Shown one piece after another: positions 15,007 to 23,356 of a DNA stretch of 64,000 nucleotides. A model generated the notes under the pieces. It was given only the letters and a program-made list of their open reading frames with translations, was not told where the DNA came from and did not search any database. Location of the stretch: contig UQAX01000009.1 in assembly GCA_900539145.1 (NCBI GenBank), positions 8,035 to 72,034 of the forward strand, given 5' to 3'. Source of the stretch: an uncultured Blautia sp. GTDB taxonomy: Bacteria > Bacillota > Clostridia > Lachnospirales > Lachnospiraceae. A program made the position numbers and the translations under genes. Numbering within the stretch: position 1 is the stretch's first letter; each line of letters opens with the position of its first letter.

Positions 15007-16110
15007 TTAAACTTCGCCAAGAACTTCAGAAAGAGCTTGCAAAAGTTCATTGTTTTTTTCGGGACTCATCATACAGAAACGGATGAAGGAATTGTCCAGA
15101 AACGGGAAAGTGGAGCAGTCACGTATCATAAGTCCTCTGCGGATGCAGTAATCAAAAACCTGCTCGGAGGTAACGTCTTCCTTTAAAATTTTTACCAGAA
15201 GGAAGTTGGAGCAGGAAGGATATACCTTTACACCTTTCCATGAGGATAAGATTTTGAAAAGTCGTTCCCTTTCTCCGGAAATCAAAGCTCTTGTTTTGTC
15301 AATGTACTCTTTATCAGAAAACATGATACAGCCGGCAATCTCTGCCAAACTGTTGATGGTCCACGGATTTTTCTTTGTGTTGATATATTTTAAAAGGTCC
15401 GGATTTCCTGTTACCGCATAGCCCAGACGCAGACCGGGAGCTGCAAAAAATTTAGAAATTCCCCGCAGGACAATGAGATTATTATAATTGTTGGTAAGAG
15501 GAATGGAAGAAATTTTACTGTCCAAAGGGGCAAATTCCTCGTAAGTTTCATCTACCATAACACAAGTTCCGTATTGCATACAGGTGTCTAAGATTTTTCG
15601 CATATCCTTTCTGGTAATAGCGGTGGAGGTAGGATTATTAGGGTTACAAAGTACCAGTAAATCAATGCTGTCGTTTAAGTGTGAACAAAAATCAGAAATA
15701 TTGATTTGGAAATTATCTTCTTCCAGCAGAGGATAGTAAAGCGTTTGTCCGCCTTTTAATGCAATTTCACGCTCGTATTCCGAATAAGTAGGGCCTAAAA
15801 TCAAAGCTTTTTTGGGATTTGTGGTCTGAATAAACAGAGAAATCAGTTCCGTAGAGCCGTTTCCTACAATAATATTTTCAAACTGAGCCCCCGTATAATC
15901 ACAGATGCTTTTGCGAAGCTTTGTGTAGTCACGGTCAGGGTAATTGGTAATGGCATCAATGTGAGTAGAGAGGGTGTCTCTTAACAAAGGAGAGATGCCA
16001 AGGGGATTTACATTGGCGGAAAAACTGGTGATATCCTCTTTTTTTATATGATAGATTTCTTCGATTTTTTCTAAATCGCTTCCGTGGAAGTGGTCTTTAT
16101 GTTTCAGCAT
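15007..16110 (-). CDS. pyridoxal-phosphate-dependent aminotransferase, HisC/CobD family (histidinol-phosphate aminotransferase or threonine-phosphate decarboxylase-like)
   Basis: 367 aa class I/II aminotransferase fold with the PLP lysine context (…LRGISKFFAAPGLRLGY…). AAGGGAGG ribosome-binding site. The exact substrate cannot be told from sequence. Confidence 0.7.
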   Translation of the reverse strand: MLKHKDHFHGSDLEKIEEIYHIKKEDITSFSANVNPLGISPLLRDTLSTHIDAITNYPDRDYTKLRKSICDYTGAQFENIIVGNGSTELISLFIQTTNPKKALILGPTYSEYEREIALKGGQTLYYPLLEEDNFQINISDFCSHLNDSIDLLVLCNPNNPTSTAITRKDMRKILDTCMQYGTCVMVDETYEEFAPLDSKISSIPLTNNYNNLIVLRGISKFFAAPGLRLGYAVTGNPDLLKYINTKKNPWTINSLAEIAGCIMFSDKEYIDKTRALISGERERLFKILSSWKGVKVYPSCSNFLLVKILKEDVTSEQVFDYCIRRGLMIRDCSTFPFLDNSFIRFCMMSPEKNNELLQALSEVLGEV

Positions 16111-16226
16111 GAAATAGCCTCCCTTTTTGTATTAAAGTTGCACAGCAATCCATTGTAGTGTATAATCCATAGTAGCAGAATATTGTTAATTGTTCAATAA
16201 AAAGAAGACGGAGTAAAGGTGATATT

Positions 16227-19200
16227 TTGAAAACACGAATGGACCAACTGATAAACGGAAGATTTGAATACGATGTACCGGGGCTTATTTTATCAACAGA
16301 AAAAATTGTATTAAAGACAATGCCGGAAGAAAAGCTCAGGGGCGAATTAGAATTTGCAGCAGAAGACAGACGAAAAATAAAAGGAATGGCATATTCTACA
16401 CATAGACGGTTTCTTTTAGGAAAAGAAAAATTTGCAGGAGACAAAATTATTCTGCCTTACGGAATAGATGCCAAGGGGCTGAAAAGTGAAGATAAAATAG
16501 AAGGAGAGATTGTGTTAAGCACCAGTATAGGAGAATACAGGGTGCCTTTTTCTATTGAAATAAGGAAAACGCAGGTGCGGACTTCTCAGAGAGCAGTAGG
16601 AACGCTGGAAGAGTTTGTTGCTCTTGCAAAGGAGGATTTCAGAGAGGCGTATCAGCTTTTTGTGGAGAAATCCTTTCCACAGCTTTTAAAGGGAAGAGAG
16701 GAATTGCTGCCTTATTATGAAGCAATGGTGAAAATGCCTGCTCCTTATCAGAATTTGGAAGAATTTTTAATTAAAGCGGGCTTGAAAAAACCGGTTTCTT
16801 TAAGTCTTGAAAAGGAAAAGCTGGAACTTTATGAGGTACAGAGCTCTTTAAAAGATACCCTGCGGATAAGACGCAGCGGATGGGGATTTTTAAGAGCGGA
16901 AATCACTGTATCGGGAGATTTTCTGGAAGTGGAAAAGCAGGTTATCCATGACGGACACTTTATCGGCAGCGTATATGATTTAGAGTATATTATCCGTAAG
17001 GAATGTCTGGGAAAAGGAAAGAACTTTGGAAGAATTTCCATTAAAACCGTATACGAAACCATTACTTATGAAATTATGGTGTCGAAAAACAATCGAATAC
17101 AGGTGGACGTAACCGCTTATGAGAAAAGAAAAAAGCTGGAAGCGGCAAAAGCTCTGTTAGAACTTCAGCTGGGAAAGGTGACTGCTTCAGAATGGTGCGA
17201 GAATACAAAGGCTCTTTTAGATGAATTAAAAGAAAACGGTTATTATTCTACGGAATGTCAGCTTTTTGAAGCTTATATGTGGGTTTTAAGCGGGAGAGAA
17301 GATGAAGCAAGACGACTACTGGACTCTTTGGAAAACAATCAGAGAGTGAAGGACGAAGAAATTTTAGAAGGGGCATTTTTGTACCTTGACGAAATTTCCC
17401 ACAGAAGCACACAGTTGAAAGAAAAGACAGCAGTGCGTCTGCATCAGCTGTACCAAAGACGTGTGGACAGCTGTCTGTTATTATACATGATTTTTGAGAT
17501 GGATGAAGAAGTTCTGAGAACCCAGTCCAGAAAGATGTTCTTTTTAGAGGAACAGTATCGAACAGGCTCAAGAAGTCCGTTTTTATATCTTATGGCGTGT
17601 AAATTGGGCGCAGAGGACGGCTCTGTTTTCCGAAAAATGAATCATTTTACTGTGCAGGTTTATCGCTTTGCACAGAAATACGGAATGCTTACAGAAGAAA
17701 TGGCATTTCGTGCAGTGGATTTAGCAGGACAGTTGAAGCGTTTTTCAAAACCGGTGTATGAAATTTTAACTTATATTTATGAGAAGTATCCTTCAGCGTT
17801 GGTCATCAAAGGCATTTGCCAGTTTGTGATGAAAGGCGAACCGAGAAAACTGGAATATTTTAAATGGTATGATTTGGCAGTGCGTGCAGAACTGAAAATC
17901 ACAGGCTTGTACGAATATTATATTGAAACCATGAGCAGGAATTACCAGAAGGTACTGCCAAAGGTCATCCGTCTGTATTTCGGCTACAATAATACATTAA
18001 GCGACCAGAGAAGAGCATTTATTTACAGCAATATTATTCGAAATAAAGAAACGGACAAGGAAACCTATCAGGCATACAAACAAAATATGGAAGCTTTTGC
18101 CTGCGATAAGATTAAAGAAGGCAGAATGAATGAAGATTTTGCAGTGGTTTATCAGGAGTTTTGTGTAAATTCCGAAGATGAAAATGTGCGTGCAGCGCTG
18201 GCAAAGGTATTGTTTACTTACAGGCTTTACTGTGACGACCCGAAAATCTGCAAGGTCATTGTCCGACACACTGCAATGAAGGAAGAACAGGTGTACCTGT
18301 GCACCGACAGAACAGCCTATATCTCTCTTTATACACAGGATGCGGCAATCTTATTTGAGGACAGCAGCAAGCGCAGATATGCAGGGACAGTAGATTATAA
18401 TCTTCACAAGCTTTTAGATATTGAAGAGCTGTCGGGAAAACTGGCAAAGGACGGGCAGAGATATGCAGGGATGCTTTTACACACCTGTGGGGAATTAAAG
18501 CACGAAAATCCTATTACGGAAGAGAATATTTCCAGCTTTGAAGCCGTTTTAAAGCTGGATATCTTTGAGGAGGATTATCGGCAGGAAATCCGTAAGCGTC
18601 TGCTTCTTTATTATGAGTCACAGATGGACAACCGGAATTTAAGGGAGTCCTTGAAGGAGATGGATTTTAAAGCTTTTGCAAAAGTAAACAAAAGCCTGCT
18701 GGTTACGATTTTGGTAAAACAGGATATGTTTGTGGGAGCTTATGATTTAATCTGCGAATACGGATATGAAGATGTGGATATGTCGGTTCTTTTAAGAATG
18801 TGCAGCAGAATGATTTTGAATTTAGAGTTTGAATACGAGGAAGAATTGCTGCTTCTGGCGGGATATATTGTAAAATCCGGTATTTATGATGAAATTCTTT
18901 TAAAATATATGGCGTCACATTTTGAAGGTCCTGTACGGGAGATGATAGAACTGTGGAAGCGTGTCAGAGGCTTTTCTCTGGACTGCTATGCTTTGGAAGA
19001 GAGAATTCTTCGTTACAGTATGTTCACCAGAATTTATTCTGAGCAGGGGCTGGAGGTTCTGAAAGATTATATACAGCAGGGTGGAAATGAGCATGTTATT
19101 TTGGCTTATCTGACTTTTGAGTCTTACGGCTATTTTGTAGGCGGAAAAGAAACAGGGGAAATTCTCTTTGAAGCATTAGAAAATCTCATGAAAAAAGAAT

Positions 19201-19766
19201 GGGAGTGCGATATTATCTGCAGATTGGCTCTTTTAAAGCATGACACAGAGCAAAATAAATGGGATACAAAGAAAAAGCAGAGAGCTCAGAAAATTTTGGA
19301 GGAATGTAGAAGAGAAAGGCTGAAATTTGAATTTTTCCAGAATATGCCAAGGGAGCTTTTGCAGGCATGCCAGATGGAAGATAAAATGTTTGTGGAATGT
19401 AAGGCAGGACCGAGAGCGAAGGTTACGCTTTACTATCAGGTGGAGAGAGAACATGTGATTTCCGAAGAAAAAACAGAGCCTTTAAAAGAACGGTATCAGG
19501 GTATTTATAACAAAGAATTTATCTTGTTTTACGGAGAAAAGCTTTTGTATCGTTTTGTAATCGAGCGAAACGGACAGACACGGGAAATTCCACAGCAGAT
19601 TTTACAGGTAGAGGCTGCGGAAGCATATGGACACAGTAAATATCAGTTGTTAAATCGAATGTTAAAGCTTTTGGAGGAAGGAAAGACAGAAGAGCTTTCA
19701 AAGCTGGAGCAATCTTATTTGAAACAGGAAAGACAGGTGGCACAATTATTTGAATTGCTGGATTAA
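16227..19766 (+). CDS. large uncharacterised protein (1179 aa); I recall proteins of this kind being annotated as DUF5717-like in Lachnospiraceae
   Basis: Long ORF with TTG start 7 nt after AGGTGA. The N-terminal ~120 aa look beta-rich and the remainder is a Tyr/Leu/Glu-rich helical repeat region. There are no Walker, J-domain or other catalytic motifs. It is translationally coupled to the next gene by a 3-nt gap. Confidence 0.6.
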   Translation: MKTRMDQLINGRFEYDVPGLILSTEKIVLKTMPEEKLRGELEFAAEDRRKIKGMAYSTHRRFLLGKEKFAGDKIILPYGIDAKGLKSEDKIEGEIVLSTSIGEYRVPFSIEIRKTQVRTSQRAVGTLEEFVALAKEDFREAYQLFVEKSFPQLLKGREELLPYYEAMVKMPAPYQNLEEFLIKAGLKKPVSLSLEKEKLELYEVQSSLKDTLRIRRSGWGFLRAEITVSGDFLEVEKQVIHDGHFIGSVYDLEYIIRKECLGKGKNFGRISIKTVYETITYEIMVSKNNRIQVDVTAYEKRKKLEAAKALLELQLGKVTASEWCENTKALLDELKENGYYSTECQLFEAYMWVLSGREDEARRLLDSLENNQRVKDEEILEGAFLYLDEISHRSTQLKEKTAVRLHQLYQRRVDSCLLLYMIFEMDEEVLRTQSRKMFFLEEQYRTGSRSPFLYLMACKLGAEDGSVFRKMNHFTVQVYRFAQKYGMLTEEMAFRAVDLAGQLKRFSKPVYEILTYIYEKYPSALVIKGICQFVMKGEPRKLEYFKWYDLAVRAELKITGLYEYYIETMSRNYQKVLPKVIRLYFGYNNTLSDQRRAFIYSNIIRNKETDKETYQAYKQNMEAFACDKIKEGRMNEDFAVVYQEFCVNSEDENVRAALAKVLFTYRLYCDDPKICKVIVRHTAMKEEQVYLCTDRTAYISLYTQDAAILFEDSSKRRYAGTVDYNLHKLLDIEELSGKLAKDGQRYAGMLLHTCGELKHENPITEENISSFEAVLKLDIFEEDYRQEIRKRLLLYYESQMDNRNLRESLKEMDFKAFAKVNKSLLVTILVKQDMFVGAYDLICEYGYEDVDMSVLLRMCSRMILNLEFEYEEELLLLAGYIVKSGIYDEILLKYMASHFEGPVREMIELWKRVRGFSLDCYALEERILRYSMFTRIYSEQGLEVLKDYIQQGGNEHVILAYLTFESYGYFVGGKETGEILFEALENLMKKEWECDIICRLALLKHDTEQNKWDTKKKQRAQKILEECRRERLKFEFFQNMPRELLQACQMEDKMFVECKAGPRAKVTLYYQVEREHVISEEKTEPLKERYQGIYNKEFILFYGEKLLYRFVIERNGQTREIPQQILQVEAAEAYGHSKYQLLNRMLKLLEEGKTEELSKLEQSYLKQERQVAQLFELLD

Positions 19767-19769
19767 GGG

Positions 19770-21026
19770 GTGAAAGAAATGAACGAAACGAGAAACATTA
19801 TAGTAGGGCTGGAAATCGGAAAGCTTCAATCACAGCTTTGTTATTACGACAGGAAAGAGAAAGAGCCGATTTCTGTTTCTGTAAAGGCAGGGAGTAATCA
19901 GTATCTTTTTCCCACCCTGCTATCCGTAAATCCGGAAAAGGAAATCTGGCACTACGGGCTGGAGGCAGAATATTTTTCAGCCAATGAAGGGGAAATTGCA
20001 GTAAACGGACTGTTAGGTATATGGGGAGAGGCAGAACCTGTCCGTGTAGGAGAAAAGGTTTTTGAGGCTGCCAAGCTTATGGAAGCTTATTTAAAAGGCG
20101 TATTATCTCTTTTGGGAGTGGGAGAGCCTGTAAGACAGATAAAGGGGCTGATGATTACCGTTCCAAAGCTGTCTTCCTCTATGGTACAGGTGGTTTATGA
20201 GGCAGCCGCAGGCATGGGATTTTCCAGAAATCAGATTTTTTTGCAGGATTATGATGAGAGCTTTTATTATTATGTTATGAACCACAGGAAGGATAATTGT
20301 ACAAGAAAAATCGGCTGGTTCTTATTTGACAATAATCAGGTGTCCTTTGCAAGATTGGTGATGGACAACCAGAAAAGACCGGCAATGGCGTATATTGAGC
20401 ATGGAATTACAGCGGAATTATCCACAGATCCGGTAAAGAGAGATGAGGATTTCTACCGTTTAATTGACCGTTCCTGTGGAAAAGATCCTTATTCCAGTAT
20501 TTATATGGTGGGAGAAGGATTTGATCAGGAGTGGGCAGTGCGTTCTGTTCCGTTTTTGTGCAGAAATCAGAGACACGTTTTTTATGGAAATAATCTCTAT
20601 GTAAAAGGGGCTTGCTATGGAGCCAGAGAGAAATGTGATGAAGGAATTTTAAAAGGATATTTGTATTTAAGTCCTTCTTTGATACAAAATAATGTGGCAA
20701 TGGAAATGCTAGTGAACGGTTCCCCGAAGACGTATCCTTTGGTAGAAGCAGGTAAGAACTGGTATGAAATTCATACAGAGCTGGAGCTTATTTTAGACGA
20801 AAAAGAGGATTTGGAATTTGTAGTGACACCCATGGAAGGCGGAAGTAAGACCAGATTTAGCATGAAGCTTCCGGGACTTCCCAAAAGACCGAATAAAACC
20901 ACAAGATTAAAAATCTGTATATCCTACGAGAGCAGTGAAACCTGTGTGATTGTTGTGGAGGATATGGGCTTTGGAGAGATGTTTCCTTCCAATGGAAACG
21001 TATGGACAGAGAAAGTGTCATGGTAA
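19770..21026 (+). CDS. divergent Hsp70/actin-fold (ASKHA) ATPase-like protein; I recall it as DUF5716-like
   Basis: 418 aa. The N-terminus IIVGLEIGKLQSQLCYYD resembles the Hsp70 phosphate-1 motif (IIGIDLGTTNS). The segment EPVRQIKGLMITVPKLSSSMVQVVYEAAAGMGF…DYDESFYYY aligns with DnaK [31 protein letters not shown]…[19 protein letters not shown] ribosome-binding site. Confidence 0.6.
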   Translation: MKEMNETRNIIVGLEIGKLQSQLCYYDRKEKEPISVSVKAGSNQYLFPTLLSVNPEKEIWHYGLEAEYFSANEGEIAVNGLLGIWGEAEPVRVGEKVFEAAKLMEAYLKGVLSLLGVGEPVRQIKGLMITVPKLSSSMVQVVYEAAAGMGFSRNQIFLQDYDESFYYYVMNHRKDNCTRKIGWFLFDNNQVSFARLVMDNQKRPAMAYIEHGITAELSTDPVKRDEDFYRLIDRSCGKDPYSSIYMVGEGFDQEWAVRSVPFLCRNQRHVFYGNNLYVKGACYGAREKCDEGILKGYLYLSPSLIQNNVAMEMLVNGSPKTYPLVEAGKNWYEIHTELELILDEKEDLEFVVTPMEGGSKTRFSMKLPGLPKRPNKTTRLKICISYESSETCVIVVEDMGFGEMFPSNGNVWTEKVSW

Positions 21027-21038
21027 AGGAGGACAGGA

Positions 21039-21815
21039 ATGAGCGGATATATTTTATGTCAGTTAAAAAGAGCAGAAATTCCCTATTATATCGAGAATAT
21101 CAGCACCAATATTTATAGTATTGAGGAGCTGTGCTATTATTTTTACCATAACATTTATCTTTTGGATGAAAGTATATTAAATGAGCATCTCTGTGATTGG
21201 ATTCGTAAAGAATTTGGTCTGGAGAAATTATATCGCCGTCTTTATAAGGTATTGGAAGAAAATATGGGAACAGGAGAATTTATTCTCGCTGTATTTAAGG
21301 AAATCAATTATCTGACACATCAGGAATTTAAGAAATTAAATGAGCAGATTTCTCTTTTGGAGCAGCAGCCTAAGGTTCTTCGTGAGAAGAAAAAGGGAGA
21401 TTATCTGGTAGAAAACAAAATGTATGTAAATGCTGTGAAGATATATGAAAATGCTCTTTTAAAAGAAGATAACGAGGGGCTGGGAGAACAGTTCCGTGGC
21501 GGCATTTATCACAATATGGGATGCGCTTATCTGCATTTGTTTCAGTTTGAGGAAGCAGCAGAATGTTTTTTGAAAGCCTATCAGTTTCTGCATACAAAGC
21601 AGGTGCTTTCCCATTATCTTACGGCGTGCTGTATGGGAAATCCGGAAGAATTTTCGGGTATATGCAACCGTATGGGAGTTTCTCCCCAGATGCAGGAGGA
21701 AATAAAAGAAAAGCTGAAGGAAGCCGGTGAAACGGTGGAGGAACCGCAAAATCAGGAGCCGGGAAAATGTTTAGAAGGTTTTATTAAGGAATATCACAGA
21801 AGCACAGGATTTTAG
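21039..21815 (+). CDS. uncharacterised protein with TPR-like repeat
   Basis: 258 aa. AGGAGG lies 7 nt upstream. A TPR-like stretch (AVKIYENALLKEDNEGLGEQFRGGIYHNMGCAYLHLFQFEEAAECFLKAY) is present. This is the third gene of the co-oriented block. Confidence 0.5.
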   Translation: MSGYILCQLKRAEIPYYIENISTNIYSIEELCYYFYHNIYLLDESILNEHLCDWIRKEFGLEKLYRRLYKVLEENMGTGEFILAVFKEINYLTHQEFKKLNEQISLLEQQPKVLREKKKGDYLVENKMYVNAVKIYENALLKEDNEGLGEQFRGGIYHNMGCAYLHLFQFEEAAECFLKAYQFLHTKQVLSHYLTACCMGNPEEFSGICNRMGVSPQMQEEIKEKLKEAGETVEEPQNQEPGKCLEGFIKEYHRSTGF

Positions 21816-21922
21816 AGAATGGTTTTTTCGGGAGTATTTTCGTCTTGTGTTTTTAAAGGTAATGATATATAATCCAGATGTATTACACTGAGTAAGTATA
21901 AGAAAGCAGAGGTAAGAAGAAT

Positions 21923-23356
21923 ATGAGTACAGACAGATATGTAAGCCCATTATCCGAACGTTATGCAAGCAGAGAAATGCAGTATATTTTTTCTCCGGAT
22001 ATGAAATTCCGCACATGGAGAAAGCTGTGGATTGCTTTGGCTGAAACTGAAAAGGAATTAGGTTTGAATATTACCCAGGAACAGATTGATGAATTAAAAG
22101 CTAACGCAGATAACATCAATTACGATGTGGCAAAGGAAAGAGAAAAACAGGTTCGTCATGATGTTATGTCCCATGTTTATGCTTATGGGGTACAGTGTCC
22201 AAAAGCAAAGGGAATTATTCATTTAGGTGCAACAAGCTGTTATGTAGGTGACAATACAGATATTATTGTTATGACAGAGGCGTTGAAACTGGTTCGTAAA
22301 AAACTGGTGAATGTCATTGCAGAATTGGCAAAATTCGCAGAGGAGCACAAAGCTCTGCCAACACTTGCATTTACTCATTTTCAGCCTGCACAGCCTACAA
22401 CCGTAGGTAAGAGAGCAACTCTTTGGATGCAGGAATTCTTATTAGATTTAGAAGATTTAGATTTTGTACTTAGTACCATGAAGCTGTTAGGCTCTAAAGG
22501 AACAACAGGAACACAGGCAAGCTTTTTGGAATTATTTGACGGCGATCAGGAAACCATTGATAAAATCGATCCGATGATTGCACAGAAAATGGGCTTTAAG
22601 GAGTGTTATCCTGTTTCCGGACAGACTTATTCCCGTAAAGTGGATACAAGAGTTTTAAATGTGCTGGCAGGAATTGCTGCAAGCGCTCACAAATTTTCCA
22701 ACGATATTCGTCTGCTTCAGCATTTAAAAGAAGTAGAAGAGCCTTTTGAAAAGAGCCAGATTGGTTCCTCTGCTATGGCATACAAGAGAAACCCAATGAG
22801 AAGTGAAAGAATTGCGTCTCTGTCCAGATTTGTTATGGTAGATGCGTTAAATCCTGCTATTACATCTGCAACACAGTGGTTTGAAAGAACACTGGACGAC
22901 TCTGCAAATAAACGTCTTTCTGTTCCGGAAGGTTTCCTTGCCATTGACGGTATTTTAGACCTTTGTTTAAATGTAGTAGACGGCTTGGTTGTATATCCGA
23001 AAGTTATTGAAAAACGTTTGAGAAGTGAGCTTCCGTTTATGGCAACAGAAAACATTATGATGGATGCTGTAAAAGCAGGGGGAGACCGTCAGGAATTACA
23101 TGAAAAAATTCGTGAGCTTTCCATGGAAGCAGGAAGAAATGTAAAAGTAGAAGGTAAAGACAACAACCTTCTGGAACTGATTGCTGCTGACCCGGCGTTT
23201 AACATGACACTGGAGGATTTACAGAAGACTATGGACCCGGCTAAATATACAGGACGTGCGGCAGTTCAGGTAGACAACTTCTTAAAGAAAGTAGTTCATC
23301 CTGTTTTGGAAGCAAACAAAGAGCTTCTGGGTATGACAGCAGAAATCAATGTGTAA
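21923..23356 (+). CDS. purB: adenylosuccinate lyase
   Basis: 477 aa with PurB signature regions (…GATSCYVGDNTD…SSAMAYKRNPMRSERI…). Confidence 0.9.
   Translation: MSTDRYVSPLSERYASREMQYIFSPDMKFRTWRKLWIALAETEKELGLNITQEQIDELKANADNINYDVAKEREKQVRHDVMSHVYAYGVQCPKAKGIIHLGATSCYVGDNTDIIVMTEALKLVRKKLVNVIAELAKFAEEHKALPTLAFTHFQPAQPTTVGKRATLWMQEFLLDLEDLDFVLSTMKLLGSKGTTGTQASFLELFDGDQETIDKIDPMIAQKMGFKECYPVSGQTYSRKVDTRVLNVLAGIAASAHKFSNDIRLLQHLKEVEEPFEKSQIGSSAMAYKRNPMRSERIASLSRFVMVDALNPAITSATQWFERTLDDSANKRLSVPEGFLAIDGILDLCLNVVDGLVVYPKVIEKRLRSELPFMATENIMMDAVKAGGDRQELHEKIRELSMEAGRNVKVEGKDNNLLELIAADPAFNMTLEDLQKTMDPAKYTGRAAVQVDNFLKKVVHPVLEANKELLGMTAEINV

What the first reader, a model, noticed from the sequence alone, without database searches (positions are those of the whole stretch)
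16227..21815. Three co-oriented uncharacterised genes: an 1179-aa protein, a divergent Hsp70/actin-fold ATPase, and a TPR-like protein
These three genes are tightly packed in one direction: 3-nt and 12-nt gaps, each with its own ribosome-binding site. They are flanked by an aminotransferase gene on the opposite strand upstream and purB on the same strand downstream, so they are not obviously horizontally acquired.

The middle protein aligns with the DnaK N-terminal lobe (phosphate-1-like IIVGLEIGK and the connect-1 region EPV…ITVP…AAAGMGF…DYDESFYYY). It is only 418 aa and lacks a canonical substrate-binding domain.

The large protein has no recognisable catalytic motif. It looks like a beta-rich N-terminal module followed by a long helical-repeat scaffold. 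The third protein carries TPR-like repeats.

An Hsp70-like ATPase, a giant scaffold and a TPR partner recall chaperone/co-chaperone or cytoskeletal-filament logic. I do not know of any characterised bacterial system like this. I believe these proteins correspond to DUF families (DUF5717/DUF5716-like) seen in Lachnospiraceae, but that is from memory.
Basis: partly seen in the sequence, partly recalled or inferred. Interest (0 to 1): 0.7.

Follow-up and report, generated by a model that had tools for sequence, protein, structure and literature searches.

The report
Lidless mini-Hsp70 operon in Lachnospiraceae
Three tightly linked genes conserved across Lachnospiraceae gut bacteria encode a stripped-down relative of the Hsp70 chaperone, a small repeat-protein adaptor and a giant non-enzymatic scaffold; the genes are real and always travel together, but nobody has shown what they do.

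Summary
Three co-oriented genes lie at 16227-21815: A (1179 aa), B (415 aa from ATG 19779, not GTG 19770) and C (258 aa). Pfam confirms A = DUF5717_N + DUF5717 and B = DUF5716_C. No paper in the library describes either.

A-B-C keep the same order and tight spacing in 78 of 80 Lachnospiraceae genomes. They sit at a syntenic chromosomal site behind a sigma-70-like promoter.

C carries 2-3 TPR motifs, an unknown N-domain and a conserved C-terminal tail. A has PapD/MSP/ASH-like beta-sandwiches alternating with TPR-like solenoids, and no catalytic motif.

In distant clades a fourth gene, D, a two-pass coiled-coil membrane protein, always follows C.

Best reading (inferred): a stable complex in which B is an Ssz1/Hsp110-like structural clamp, not a cycling foldase. 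Biological role unknown.

The parts
16138..16166 (+). Sigma-70-like promoter candidate (TTGCAC-17-TATAAT, or TGCACA-16-TATAAT as the tool reads it) in the 116-nt divergent intergenic region upstream of A
   Evidence: It is the joint-best consensus match (10 of 12) and the best on the + strand in 15900-22100; sequence read. A consensus match only, not shown to be functional.
16227..19766 (+). Gene A: 1179-aa DUF5717 protein, a non-enzymatic multidomain scaffold
   Evidence: Pfam PF18984 E 3.5e-244 plus PF18983 E 2.8e-95. There are 3,491 50%-identity clusters at E<=1e-3, and nearly all of the top 150 are ~1180 aa. AF2 model: pLDDT 86.8, pTM 0.60. No PDB sequence hit.
16281..17084 (+). A N-terminal region: beta-sandwich 1 (model residues 15-110), helical bundle (123-179), beta-sandwich 2 (187-282). 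Model numbering starts at ATG 16239.
17109..18209 (+). A helical solenoid 1 (model residues 291-657). It contains the most conserved stretch of the protein (~527-600, LRITRLYEYYIETM...IRMYFxYNNTLS).
18216..18410 (+). A beta domain 3 (model residues 660-724)
18420..19367 (+). A helical solenoid 2 (model residues 728-1043)
19386..19760 (+). A beta domain 4 (model residues 1050-1123) and C-terminal helical hairpin (1134-1174)
   Evidence: lies within Pfam DUF5717 C-terminal family
19779..21026 (+). Gene B: 415-aa DUF5716 protein, a lidless, IIB-less Hsp70 homologue (the GTG at 19770 is an unlikely alternative start)
19779..20654 (+). B nucleotide-binding-domain-like region (residues 1-292). Phosphate-1 is G10-x-[D/E]12-x-G14-xxx-S18-Q19. 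Connect-1 has D157 and E160-S161-F162. The phosphate-2 hairpin (177-196) has a non-Gly-rich, variable turn. The adenosine motif is V-G245-x-G247-F. Subdomain IIB is absent: only one helix (218-233) lies between the third IIA strand and the VGxG strand.
   Evidence: Motif register comes from secondary structure plus hhalign, not from a 3D superposition.
20655..21023 (+). B linker (L-K-G-Y-L-Y-L) and eight-stranded SBD-beta-like domain (residues 293-415). Invariant motif: M-x-L-x-x-L-P-x-R-P...T-R-L...D-x-G-x-G. The protein ends straight after the last strand, so there is no helical lid.
21039..21815 (+). Gene C: 258-aa TPR protein. It has a conserved unknown N-domain (residues 1-110, 21039-21368), 2-3 TPR motifs (~115-200, 21381-21638) and a conserved C-terminal tail E-Y-H-R-S-T-G-[FSA] (21789-21812).
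   Evidence: Single-sequence TPR hits fall below Pfam cut-offs. An ortholog profile hits consensus TPR proteins at E 3e-17 and Sti1/Sec72/CHIP/Tah1/FKBP51 TPRs at 1e-4 to 4e-2. Conservation. The family has 1,673 90%-identity clusters, mostly about 260 aa (256-292 among those listed).

Best explanation
**What is shown**

A, B and C form a vertically inherited, apparently Lachnospiraceae-specific chromosomal operon.
- B is a minimal Hsp70 homologue: an NBD without subdomain IIB, the interdomain linker and an SBD-beta, with no helical lid. AF2 models it with high confidence as one compact unit (pTM 0.89).
- B's catalytic motifs are only partly kept.
- C is a small TPR adaptor with a family-specific N-domain and a conserved C-terminal tail.
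- A is a 1179-aa scaffold with no recognisable catalytic motif, built from PapD/MSP/ASH-like beta-sandwiches and TPR-like solenoids.

**What is inferred**

- The three proteins assemble into one stable cytoplasmic complex.
- B does not run a fast ATP-driven folding cycle. It acts as a structural peptide clamp or holdase.
- The closest analogy is Ssz1 in the ribosome-associated complex (RAC), which holds a partner's peptide as a pseudo-substrate; Hsp110 is a second analogy.
- Candidate peptides for B's SBD-beta are two conserved tails:
  - the flexible N-terminus of A (MKxRMEQLxNGRFEY; pLDDT ~55);
  - the C-terminus of C (EYHRSTG-F/S/A).
- A offers further peptide-binding surfaces (beta-sandwiches, TPR grooves) for a client or assembly substrate that is still unknown.
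- In sister clades a fourth gene, D, follows C. It encodes a coiled-coil protein with a two-helix membrane hairpin and would tether the complex to the cytoplasmic membrane. The Blautia-type operon in this window lacks D.
For: **Identity and distribution**
- Pfam assignments.
- At least 586 matching stretches in the one-genome-per-species collection encode a B relative. The titles of the 80 retrieved loci are almost all Lachnospiraceae genera or unclassified Clostridia.

**Linkage**
- A-B-C have the same order and tight or overlapping spacing in 78/80 loci, and also in relatives with only 27-32% identity in A.
- Identities of A, B and C to the window co-vary across loci (r 0.96-0.97). This is phylogeny-confounded.

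**B is an Hsp70 homologue**
- Foldseek E 9e-18 to 1e-16 to DnaK constructs comprising NBD+SBD-beta, with alignments spanning the whole target.
- Sequence bridge: hhalign 94%, E 1e-7, to an atypical Hsp70 that hits Pfam HSP70.
- Compact model, pTM 0.89.

**B's site is degenerate**
- Phosphate-1 TTN is replaced by variable charged residues.
- The phosphate-2 turn is variable and not Gly-rich.
- There is no conserved Lys in the IB region.
- IIB is absent.

**A and C look non-enzymatic**
- No Pfam, NCBIfam or PDB sequence hits beyond the DUFs and TPR.
- A gives only PapD/MSP/ASH and TPR local fold matches.

**Housekeeping-like setting**
- The site is syntenic (polC, aminotransferase, A-B-C, purB), with a sigma-70-like promoter.
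- No PADLOC hits and no plasmid hits.
- The only 'phage' hits are unverified contigs. The one examined (MT835486) carries valS and mgsA.

**Membrane link**
- D follows C wherever enough upstream sequence exists: ABCD intact in 57 of 84 loci, plus 4 with split ORF calls and 11 partial arrays cut at contig ends.
- D has two hydrophobic segments at ~171-232.
Against: - No physical interaction has been tested.
- B keeps some cleft residues: the phosphate-1 Asp/Glu, invariant E160, the VGxGF adenosine motif and, in distant clades, the phosphate-2 Asp. Nucleotide binding or slow hydrolysis cannot be excluded.
- The residue mapping to DnaK rests on sequence register and secondary structure, not on a superposition.
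- A, B and C evolve much faster than their neighbours: median 39-46% identity against 90% for purB in the same loci. That is unusual for a core housekeeping machine and would also fit a conflict system.
- The client and the cellular process are completely unknown.
- D is absent from this window and from all 80 Blautia-type loci, so membrane tethering may not apply here.
- Two short D-bearing contigs lack A-B-C upstream; they look fragmentary or possibly chimeric.
Confidence: 0.45

Rival explanations
1. B is an active, ATP-cycling Hsp70 chaperone. A and/or C act as non-J-domain co-chaperones that deliver clients and stimulate hydrolysis, so the operon is a dedicated foldase or disaggregase system.
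For: - Hsp70 fold with SBD-beta.
- Retained acidic phosphate-1 residue, invariant E160 and the VGxGF motif.
- Distant clades keep GID and the phosphate-2 Asp.
- TPR proteins are classic Hsp70 partners, and C's profile weakly matches the Sti1/CHIP/Sec72 TPRs.
- In one genome (L056) the triad is followed by four canonical-motif Hsp70 paralogues and a protein that looks GrpE-like by eye.
Against: - No J domain or HPD-containing module was found in A or C.
- IIB, the exchange-factor docking site and half of the adenine pocket, is missing.
- Phosphate-1 Thr-Thr, the catalytic Lys and the Gly-rich phosphate-2 loop are not conserved.
- There is no lid to trap substrates.
- The TPR clamp position equivalent to Hop N12 is an invariant Asp (D121), and the third-helix basic pair is not conserved. 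B also does not end in an EEVD-like acidic tail.
Confidence: 0.22
2. The operon is an anti-phage or inter-genomic conflict system. A is a sensor scaffold and B an Hsp70-like switch.
For: - Fast sequence divergence relative to flanking genes.
- A large repeat-rich protein with TPR-like and Ig-like modules resembles sensor architectures.
- B relatives turn up in records labelled 'Bacteriophage sp.'.
Against: - No PADLOC match for any of the three.
- No effector domain (nuclease, protease, TIR, pore-former) in any component.
- Fixed syntenic position next to polC/purB in several genera, rather than a variable island.
- Absent from plasmids.
- Of the 'phage' records, the one examined (MT835486) is an unverified contig carrying valS and mgsA, i.e. 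a bacterial fragment.
Confidence: 0.1
3. B is an actin-like (ParM/MreB/FtsA-type) polymerising protein, and the operon builds a cytoskeletal filament organised by A and C.
Against: - B carries an Hsp70-type linker plus SBD-beta, which no actin-like protein has.
- IIB, which contributes to longitudinal contacts in actin-like filaments (from knowledge), is missing.
- There are no Pfam MreB/FtsA/ParM hits.
Confidence: 0.06
4. B is a small-molecule (sugar or acyl) kinase of the ASKHA superfamily, and the operon is metabolic, perhaps linked to the neighbouring aminotransferase and purine genes.
Against: - Much weaker fold scores than for Hsp70s.
- Degenerate phosphate loops.
- The presence of an SBD-beta domain.
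- No kinase family hits.
- In many Blautia genomes the aminotransferase and purB are not adjacent to the triad, whereas A-B-C never separate.
Confidence: 0.02

Closest known systems
Ssz1 (atypical Hsp70 of the yeast ribosome-associated complex) and Hsp110/Sse1
   Same: - Like B they are non-canonical Hsp70s. From knowledge: Ssz1 has a truncated SBD, does not need ATP hydrolysis, and is a permanent subunit that holds its partner's peptide as a pseudo-substrate (PDB 6sr6 appears).
- B's high-confidence compact model (pTM 0.89) may correspond to their docked NBD/SBD-beta arrangement.
   Different: - B is far smaller (415 aa) and lacks NBD subdomain IIB entirely.
- It has no lid remnant.
- It has no detectable HMMER similarity to any PDB Hsp70.
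- Its partners (DUF5717 scaffold, TPR protein) are unrelated to zuotin.
- It is bacterial, and a ribosome link is not indicated.
Canonical bacterial Hsp70s (DnaK, HscA, HscC) with DnaJ/GrpE
   Same: Same two-domain core: NBD, hydrophobic linker, eight-stranded SBD-beta. The conserved motifs are recognisable: GxD/ExG, ITVP, ESF(Y), VGxGF, KGAxY, and LPxRP...TRL...DxGxG, which corresponds to DnaK's GI(N/P)PAPRG..QIEVTFDID..G motif.
   Different: - No lid and no IIB.
- Degenerate phosphate-1 and phosphate-2 loops, and no catalytic Lys.
- No J-protein or GrpE in the operon.
- Below every Pfam HSP70 threshold.
- hhalign to DnaK is only marginal (E 0.009, probability 4.5%).
Eukaryotic Hsp70-TPR assemblies (Hop/Sti1, CHIP, Sec72 of the Sec63 complex)
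   Same: An Hsp70-family protein is paired with a small 3-TPR-type protein. C's ortholog profile weakly matches these TPR domains (E 1e-4 to 2e-2). In sister clades a membrane protein is part of the operon, which loosely recalls the membrane-bound Sec63/71/72-Hsp70 arrangement.
   Different: The resemblance is generic TPR similarity. The carboxylate-clamp Asn is an invariant Asp in C, and the third-helix basic residues are not conserved. B has no EEVD tail; here the conserved tail is on the TPR protein instead. No homology of A or D to Sec proteins was found.
PapD-like / MSP / ASH beta-sandwich proteins and TPR solenoid scaffolds (for A)

Membership tests
Pfam DUF5717 (PF18984 + PF18983) and DUF5716 (PF18980) | Score above the curated gathering thresholds over the full model length | tested here: met
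   A: 813 bits (cut-off 25) over model 1-874/875, and 319 bits over 1-306/306. B: 357.6 bits (cut-off 34.7) over 2-296/296.
Hsp70 family | Actin-like/ASKHA nucleotide-binding domain that is structurally closest to Hsp70 NBDs | tested here: met
   [not shown]
Hsp70 family | Hydrophobic interdomain linker followed by an eight-stranded substrate-binding beta domain | tested here: met
   - Eight strands between 304 and 414 follow the L-K-G-Y-L-Y-L linker.
- Foldseek top hits are NBD+SBD-beta constructs aligned over their whole length.
- Sequence-level support is weak (hhalign E 0.43).
Hsp70 family | C-terminal alpha-helical lid (SBD-alpha) | tested here: not met
   B ends at residue 415, one residue after the last beta strand (408-414). 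There is no helix after residue 288.
Hsp70 family | NBD subdomain IIB | tested here: not met
   Only one helix (218-233) lies between the third IIA strand and the VGxG strand. The NBD is ~292 aa, against ~383 in DnaK.
Hsp70 family | Conserved catalytic set: phosphate-1 D-x-G-T-T, Lys70, Glu171, phosphate-2 D-x-G-G-G-T (DnaK numbering) | tested here: not met
   - Kept: D/E12 (23 D, 22 E of 45) and E160 (45/45).
- Lost: the TT(N) positions are variable charged residues.
- Lost: there is no invariant Lys in residues 40-125.
- Lost: the phosphate-2 turn (184-187) is variable and Gly-poor.
- Sources; register supported; distant clades.
- The mapping is by sequence register, not by 3D superposition.
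Hsp70 family | Sequence-profile membership (Pfam HSP70 PF00012) | tested here: not met
   No HSP70 hit at E<=1 for B or for the C-terminal domains of 19 members at E<=10. The link is indirect only: hhalign E 1e-7 to an atypical Hsp70 that itself hits PF00012 at 1.4e-10.
Actin-like filament formers (ParM/MreB/FtsA/MamK) | Closest structural neighbours are actin-like proteins; nucleotide-dependent polymerisation | tested here: not met
   [not shown]
TPR proteins (C) | At least two consecutive 34-residue TPR helix-turn-helix motifs | tested here: met
   The single sequence is below the Pfam cut-offs (26.1 bits against 27 for TPR_2). The ortholog profile covers residues ~115-200 against consensus TPR proteins at E 3e-17 to 1e-6.
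EEVD-binding 'carboxylate clamp' TPR domains (Hop, CHIP, Sec72, FKBP51) | Clamp residues Lys/Asn (helix A1), Asn (A2), Lys/Arg (A3) that bind a partner's C-terminal carboxylate | tested here: inconclusive
   K117 and N159 are invariant, but the A1 Asn position is an invariant Asp (D121). No conserved basic pair is visible in the third repeat. The assignment is by profile alignment to consensus TPR, and no structure of C was predicted.
Known anti-phage defence systems | Match to a PADLOC-DB component model, or location in mobile or variable islands | tested here: not met
   No PADLOC hit at E<=1 for A, B or C. Syntenic core location. No plasmid hit.

The most novel reading that the evidence does not exclude
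The DUF5717-DUF5716-TPR operon (plus the membrane protein D in sister clades) encodes a previously unrecognised bacterial machine. It is built around a pseudo-enzymatic, lidless, IIB-less Hsp70 that serves as a permanent structural clamp on a giant scaffold at or near the membrane. This would be a bacterial counterpart, by convergence or deep homology, of eukaryotic structural Hsp70 assemblies such as Ssz1-zuotin (RAC) or the Sec63/Sec72-Hsp70 arrangement. It would carry out a process specific to Lachnospiraceae, among the most abundant human gut commensals.
Probability: 0.3. Interest if true: 0.75.

Novelty: new variant of a known kind. Interest (0 to 1): 0.6.

Why it matters
- **Chaperone biology.** Hsp70s are among the best-studied proteins. 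Even so, a form that naturally lacks both the lid and subdomain IIB, has degenerate catalytic loops, and is locked in an operon with a 1179-aa scaffold and a TPR protein does not appear to have been described. No paper in the searched library discusses either DUF.
- **Scale.** The family is large: thousands of 50%-identity clusters and at least 586 matches in the one-genome-per-species collection. It is syntenic in Blautia and other dominant human gut Lachnospiraceae, so it probably reflects clade-specific cell biology that current annotation misses.
- **A testable model.** It offers a natural minimal Hsp70 (NBD core plus SBD-beta) for asking what an Hsp70 can do without a lid, IIB, a J-protein or an exchange factor.
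- **Annotation.** DUF5716 should be re-annotated as an Hsp70-superfamily member.
- **Where to look.** The fourth, membrane-anchored component in sister clades suggests where to look for the function.

Tried and rejected
- **Direct sequence searches.** phmmer and profile hmmsearch of A and B against all PDB sequences gave nothing meaningful. NCBIfam gave nothing.
- **hhalign of B to E. coli DnaK.** The DnaK sequence was validated against PDB. The B profile gave only a marginal local match (E 0.009, probability 4.5%). The SBD-beta sub-alignment gave a non-significant match (E 0.43), although it lay in the expected register.
- **Pfam scan of 19 B C-terminal domains at E<=10.** No HSP70 hit.
- **Defence and mobility checks.** PADLOC gave no hits and plasmids gave none. 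The phage-database hits are unverified contigs; the one examined carries housekeeping genes.
- **Literature.** There are no papers on DUF5716 or DUF5717, and broader Hsp70/TPR/Lachnospiraceae searches found nothing relevant.
- **Structure jobs.** The first prediction of A failed and was re-run successfully. The afdb50 fold library was unavailable.
- **Fourth gene D.** A search in the window and in 80 Blautia-type loci by tblastn and HMM found it absent.
- **L056 atypical Hsp70.** A metagenome scan with it found nothing.
- **Rejected ideas.** Sugar kinase, FtsA or ParM identity for B; a J-domain in C or A; horizontal acquisition.

Full report
**1. Observation**

The window has three + strand ORFs at 16227-19766 (A), 19770-21026 (B) and 21039-21815 (C).

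- A's TTG start at 16227 reproduces the family's consensus N-terminus (MKxRM...) and the 1179-aa length of its 99%-identical cluster.
- B's homologues are almost all 415 aa and begin MNExRN. The RBS AAGGGGTG precedes ATG 19779 and overlaps the GTG at 19770. B therefore most likely starts at 19779, and the A-B gap is 12 nt.
- C has an AGGAGG RBS and a 12-nt gap from B.
The aminotransferase is CobD/HisC-like.
- GC content is flat across the region.

**2. Families, distribution and linkage**

Pfam places A in DUF5717_N + DUF5717 (E 3.5e-244 and 2.8e-95) and B in DUF5716_C (E 5.3e-107). C has only sub-threshold TPR hits. NCBIfam adds nothing.

No paper in the library discusses either DUF; the single text hit is irrelevant.

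The window is from an uncultured Blautia sp. (97% protein identity over B, and 91-99% for most neighbouring genes, to URHS01000010).

Family sizes:
The 80 retrieved loci are almost all Lachnospiraceae genera or unclassified Clostridia by title; three are filed under unrelated taxa (section 11).
- The A profile finds 3,491 50%-identity clusters at E<=1e-3. Nearly all of the best 150 are ~1180 aa.
- The C profile finds 1,673 90%-identity clusters, mostly about 260 aa (256-292 among those listed). Sources name them only 'TPR repeat protein' or 'hypothetical'.

Linkage in 80 loci:
- B and C are always adjacent, and A is directly upstream in 78.
- Of the two exceptions, one contig is truncated. The other (L023) has an integrase and an AAA_25 ATPase gene in the upstream region where A would be.
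- Gaps are mostly -4 to +16 nt.
- The order A-B-C, and even the divergent aminotransferase, persist in relatives with only 27-32% identity in A.
- Identities of A, B and C to the window co-vary (r 0.96-0.97). Their medians are 39-46% where purB is 90%. The module is inseparable but evolves fast.

**3. Protein B**

The AF2 model is confident: pLDDT 91.5, pTM 0.89.

*Fold searches*
- ParM, actins and MreB reach only 11-14.6. Sugar and pantothenate kinases reach ~10-11.6.
- Foldseek's best hits (E 9e-18 to 1e-16, probability 1.00) are all Hsp70 chains that include the SBD-beta, several of them lid-deleted constructs, e.g. lid-deleted M. genitalium DnaK 5obu and G. kaustophilus DnaK 2v7y. The alignments span the whole target.

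*Architecture*
- Secondary structure shows an NBD core up to ~288, a hydrophobic linker (L-K-G-Y-L-Y-L) and eight beta strands between 304 and 414.
- This matches the strand pattern of DnaK's SBD-beta. The DnaK strand positions are from my own knowledge.
- The protein ends directly after the last strand, so there is no lid.
- Only one helix (218-233) separates the third IIA strand from the VGxG strand, so subdomain IIB is missing.

*Sequence evidence*
- It is weak to DnaK itself: hhalign E 0.009 for B 83-199 against DnaK 97-210, and E 0.43 for the SBD-beta motif register. The DnaK sequence was checked against PDB.
- There is a bridge. The B profile matches an atypical 525-aa Hsp70 from locus L056 at 94% probability, E 1e-7. 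That protein hits Pfam HSP70 at 1.4e-10 and has canonical DFGTTNS / IDFGGGTLD / VGGFS motifs.

*Motif conservation in 45 family members*
- Phosphate-1 is G-x-[D/E]-x-G, but the Thr-Thr-Asn positions are variable charged residues.
- E160-S161-F162 are invariant, and D157 is present in 35/45.
- The phosphate-2 turn (184-187) is variable and Gly-poor.
- V-G245-x-G247-F and K-G-A-C are conserved.
- There is no invariant Lys in the IB region.
- Distant clades keep G-I-D and the phosphate-2 Asp, but not the Thr-Thr or the Gly-rich loop.

*Conclusion*
B is a genuine but minimal Hsp70 homologue with a degenerate active site.

**4. Protein C**

An alignment of 26 orthologs taken from the loci shows three parts:
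- a strongly conserved N-domain (1-110) with no match anywhere;
- a TPR region (~115-200) that hits consensus TPR proteins at E 3e-17, and Sti1, Sec72, Tah1, CHIP and FKBP51 TPRs at 1e-4 to 4e-2;
- a conserved extreme C-terminus, E-Y-H-R-S-T-G-[F/S/A].

K117 and N159 are invariant at carboxylate-clamp positions. The clamp Asn of helix A1 is an invariant Asp (D121), and the third-helix basic pair is not conserved. B also has no EEVD-like tail. A classic EEVD clamp is therefore not supported.

**5. Protein A**

The AF2 model has pLDDT 86.8 but pTM 0.60, so the domains are reliable and their mutual arrangement is not.

Domain order, in model numbering from ATG 16239:

| Residues | Element |
|---|---|
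| 15-110 | beta-sandwich |
| 123-179 | helical bundle |
| 187-282 | beta-sandwich |
| 291-657 | helical solenoid |
| 660-724 | small beta domain |
| 728-1043 | helical solenoid |
| 1050-1123 | beta domain |
| 1134-1174 | helical hairpin |

- Invariant residues cluster in 527-600 and include no recognisable catalytic constellation.
- There is no hydrophobic segment in A, B or C, so all three are cytoplasmic.
- A's first ~10 residues are conserved but have low confidence (pLDDT 55). This suggests a flexible conserved tail.

A curiosity with no evidential weight: several of A's ASH-domain matches and two of B's Hsp70 matches come from the same ciliary central-apparatus structures (7n6g, 7sqc), where HSP70 is a structural subunit among ASH-rich proteins.

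**6. Context**

- The best + strand sigma-70-like site in the region (TTGCAC-17-TATAAT, 16138-16166) lies just upstream of A.
- No terminator-like site separates C from purB. The 107-nt spacer has its own TATAAT-like element, so read-through is possible but not needed.
- PADLOC gives no hit and plasmids give none.
- Five 'Bacteriophage sp.' records hold 22-32%-identical B relatives. All are unverified virome scaffolds. MT835486 carries mgsA, A-B-C-D and valS, so it is bacterial DNA.

*A fourth gene, D*
- These distant loci, and L081, have a ~390-aa gene right after C.
- The three D proteins are 25-26% identical (E 1e-29 to 7e-41).
- D is coiled-coil-rich and has two adjacent hydrophobic segments at ~171-232.
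- In a scan of metagenome contigs with a D profile, A-B-C-D is intact in 57 of 84 loci. Four more show the same order with split ORF calls, and 11 are partial arrays (BCD or CD) cut at a contig end. L082 has ABC only.
- Eleven loci show D alone. Most of these have D at the start of the contig. Two short contigs (L097, L160) have upstream sequence without C and look fragmentary or possibly chimeric.
- D is absent from this window and from all 80 Blautia-type loci.

*The L056 cluster*
In one locus, L056, the triad is followed by four Hsp70-family paralogues and two coiled-coil proteins. One of the coiled-coil proteins has, by eye, a GrpE-like C-terminus. This adjacency occurs once in 80 loci, so it is a lead and not evidence.

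**7. Mechanism**

*Shown:* homology and architecture of B; TPR content of C; modular, apparently non-enzymatic nature of A; strict co-linearity; chromosomal, non-mobile setting.

*Inferred:*
- The three proteins form a stable complex.
- B lacks the lid, IIB, a J-protein partner and an exchange factor, and has degenerate phosphate loops. It therefore acts as a structural clamp or holdase, as Ssz1 does in RAC or as Hsp110 does, rather than as a cycling foldase.
- Its SBD-beta may hold a conserved tail of A or C.
- A supplies further peptide-binding surfaces for an unknown client.
- D anchors the assembly to the membrane in sister clades.

I put this at ~0.45.

*Rivals:* an active Hsp70 cycle with novel co-chaperones (0.22), a conflict system (0.10), an actin-like filament (0.06), a metabolic kinase (0.02). 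The remaining probability is for something not yet imagined.

**8. Comparison and novelty**

- B works like, and is structurally closest to, atypical Hsp70s. It meets the fold-level criteria: NBD, linker and SBD-beta.
- It fails the lid, IIB, catalytic-motif and sequence-profile criteria.
- It should therefore be called a divergent Hsp70-superfamily member, not a DnaK-type chaperone.
- The operon as a whole has no characterised counterpart that I could find.
- I rate it a new variant of a known kind. The families are already catalogued as DUFs, but their nature and linkage appear undescribed.

**9. Limits**

- No multimer prediction was possible.
- No structure of C or D was predicted.
- No expression or fitness data were available.
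- Catalytic-residue mapping rests on sequence register and secondary structure.

**10. Leads that gave nothing**

These are listed under 'tried and rejected'.

**11. Also noticed**

- Likely mis-binned Blautia-type contigs are filed under Prevotella, Eggerthellaceae and Ruminococcus bicirculans.
- Bacterial fragments are filed as 'Bacteriophage sp.'.

Noticed in passing
L083:11002-12177, L081:15690-16868, L084:4222-5385 (and L085-L164): In distant clades a fourth gene, D, directly follows C. It is ~390 aa, with coiled-coil regions on either side of a two-helix membrane hairpin. A-B-C-D is intact in 57 of 84 loci, and most of the rest are cut by contig ends. D is absent from this window and from the 80 Blautia-type loci. 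It has no Pfam or NCBIfam family.
   Followed up: yes
L056:12069-20940: In one MAG the triad is immediately followed by four Hsp70-family paralogues (502, 527, 519 and 525 aa, with canonical motifs and no long lid). There are also two coiled-coil proteins, one with a GrpE-like C-terminus by eye. The 525-aa paralogue is the only protein with significant profile similarity to B (hhalign E 1e-7). This adjacency was seen in 1 of 80 loci only.
   Followed up: partly
window 19770-19779: The mechanically longest ORF for B starts at GTG 19770. Homologue lengths (415 aa) and the RBS AAGGGGTG point to ATG 19779, so the A-B spacer is 12 nt rather than 3.
   Followed up: yes
L023:2220-8142: In one Blautia MAG, gene A is missing upstream of B-C. 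The upstream region instead holds a phage-type integrase and an AAA_25 ATPase gene. This could be a mobile-element insertion or deletion that removed A, or a mis-assembly.
   Followed up: partly
MT835486.1 (L083), MT835719.1 (L084) in the phage collection: Records labelled 'UNVERIFIED: Bacteriophage sp.' from human faecal viromes carry the A-B-C-D operon. In MT835486 the operon sits next to mgsA and valS. That record looks like a bacterial chromosomal fragment, not a phage genome.
   Followed up: yes
L045, L052, L067 (genome contigs): Contigs with Blautia-like A-B-C operons (43% identity in B) are filed under Prevotella sp., Ruminococcus bicirculans and Eggerthellaceae 'cleanbin' assemblies. 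These are probably binning contamination.
   Followed up: no
window 15007-16110 (- strand); L081:8857-9948; L082:8587-9693: A CobD/HisC-like PLP aminotransferase is transcribed divergently from A. TIGR01140 scores 289 bits against a cut-off of 290.55. The arrangement persists even in lineages where A is only 27-32% identical, but is lost in many Blautia. It is unclear whether this is plain synteny or a shared regulatory region.
   Followed up: partly
window 16227-16271 (A residues 1-15) and 21789-21812 (C residues 251-258): There are two short, highly conserved terminal tails: A's N-terminus MKxRMEQLxNGRFEY (low model confidence) and C's C-terminus EYHRSTG[F/S/A]. Both are candidate docking peptides for B's SBD-beta or for TPR grooves. 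Neither has been tested.
   Followed up: no
L081:18808-19972: In one distant lineage, cotJA-cotJB-cotJC (spore coat) genes lie about 2 kb downstream of the A-B-C-D operon, after a Cthe_2159-like gene. This was seen once and is probably coincidental.
   Followed up: no
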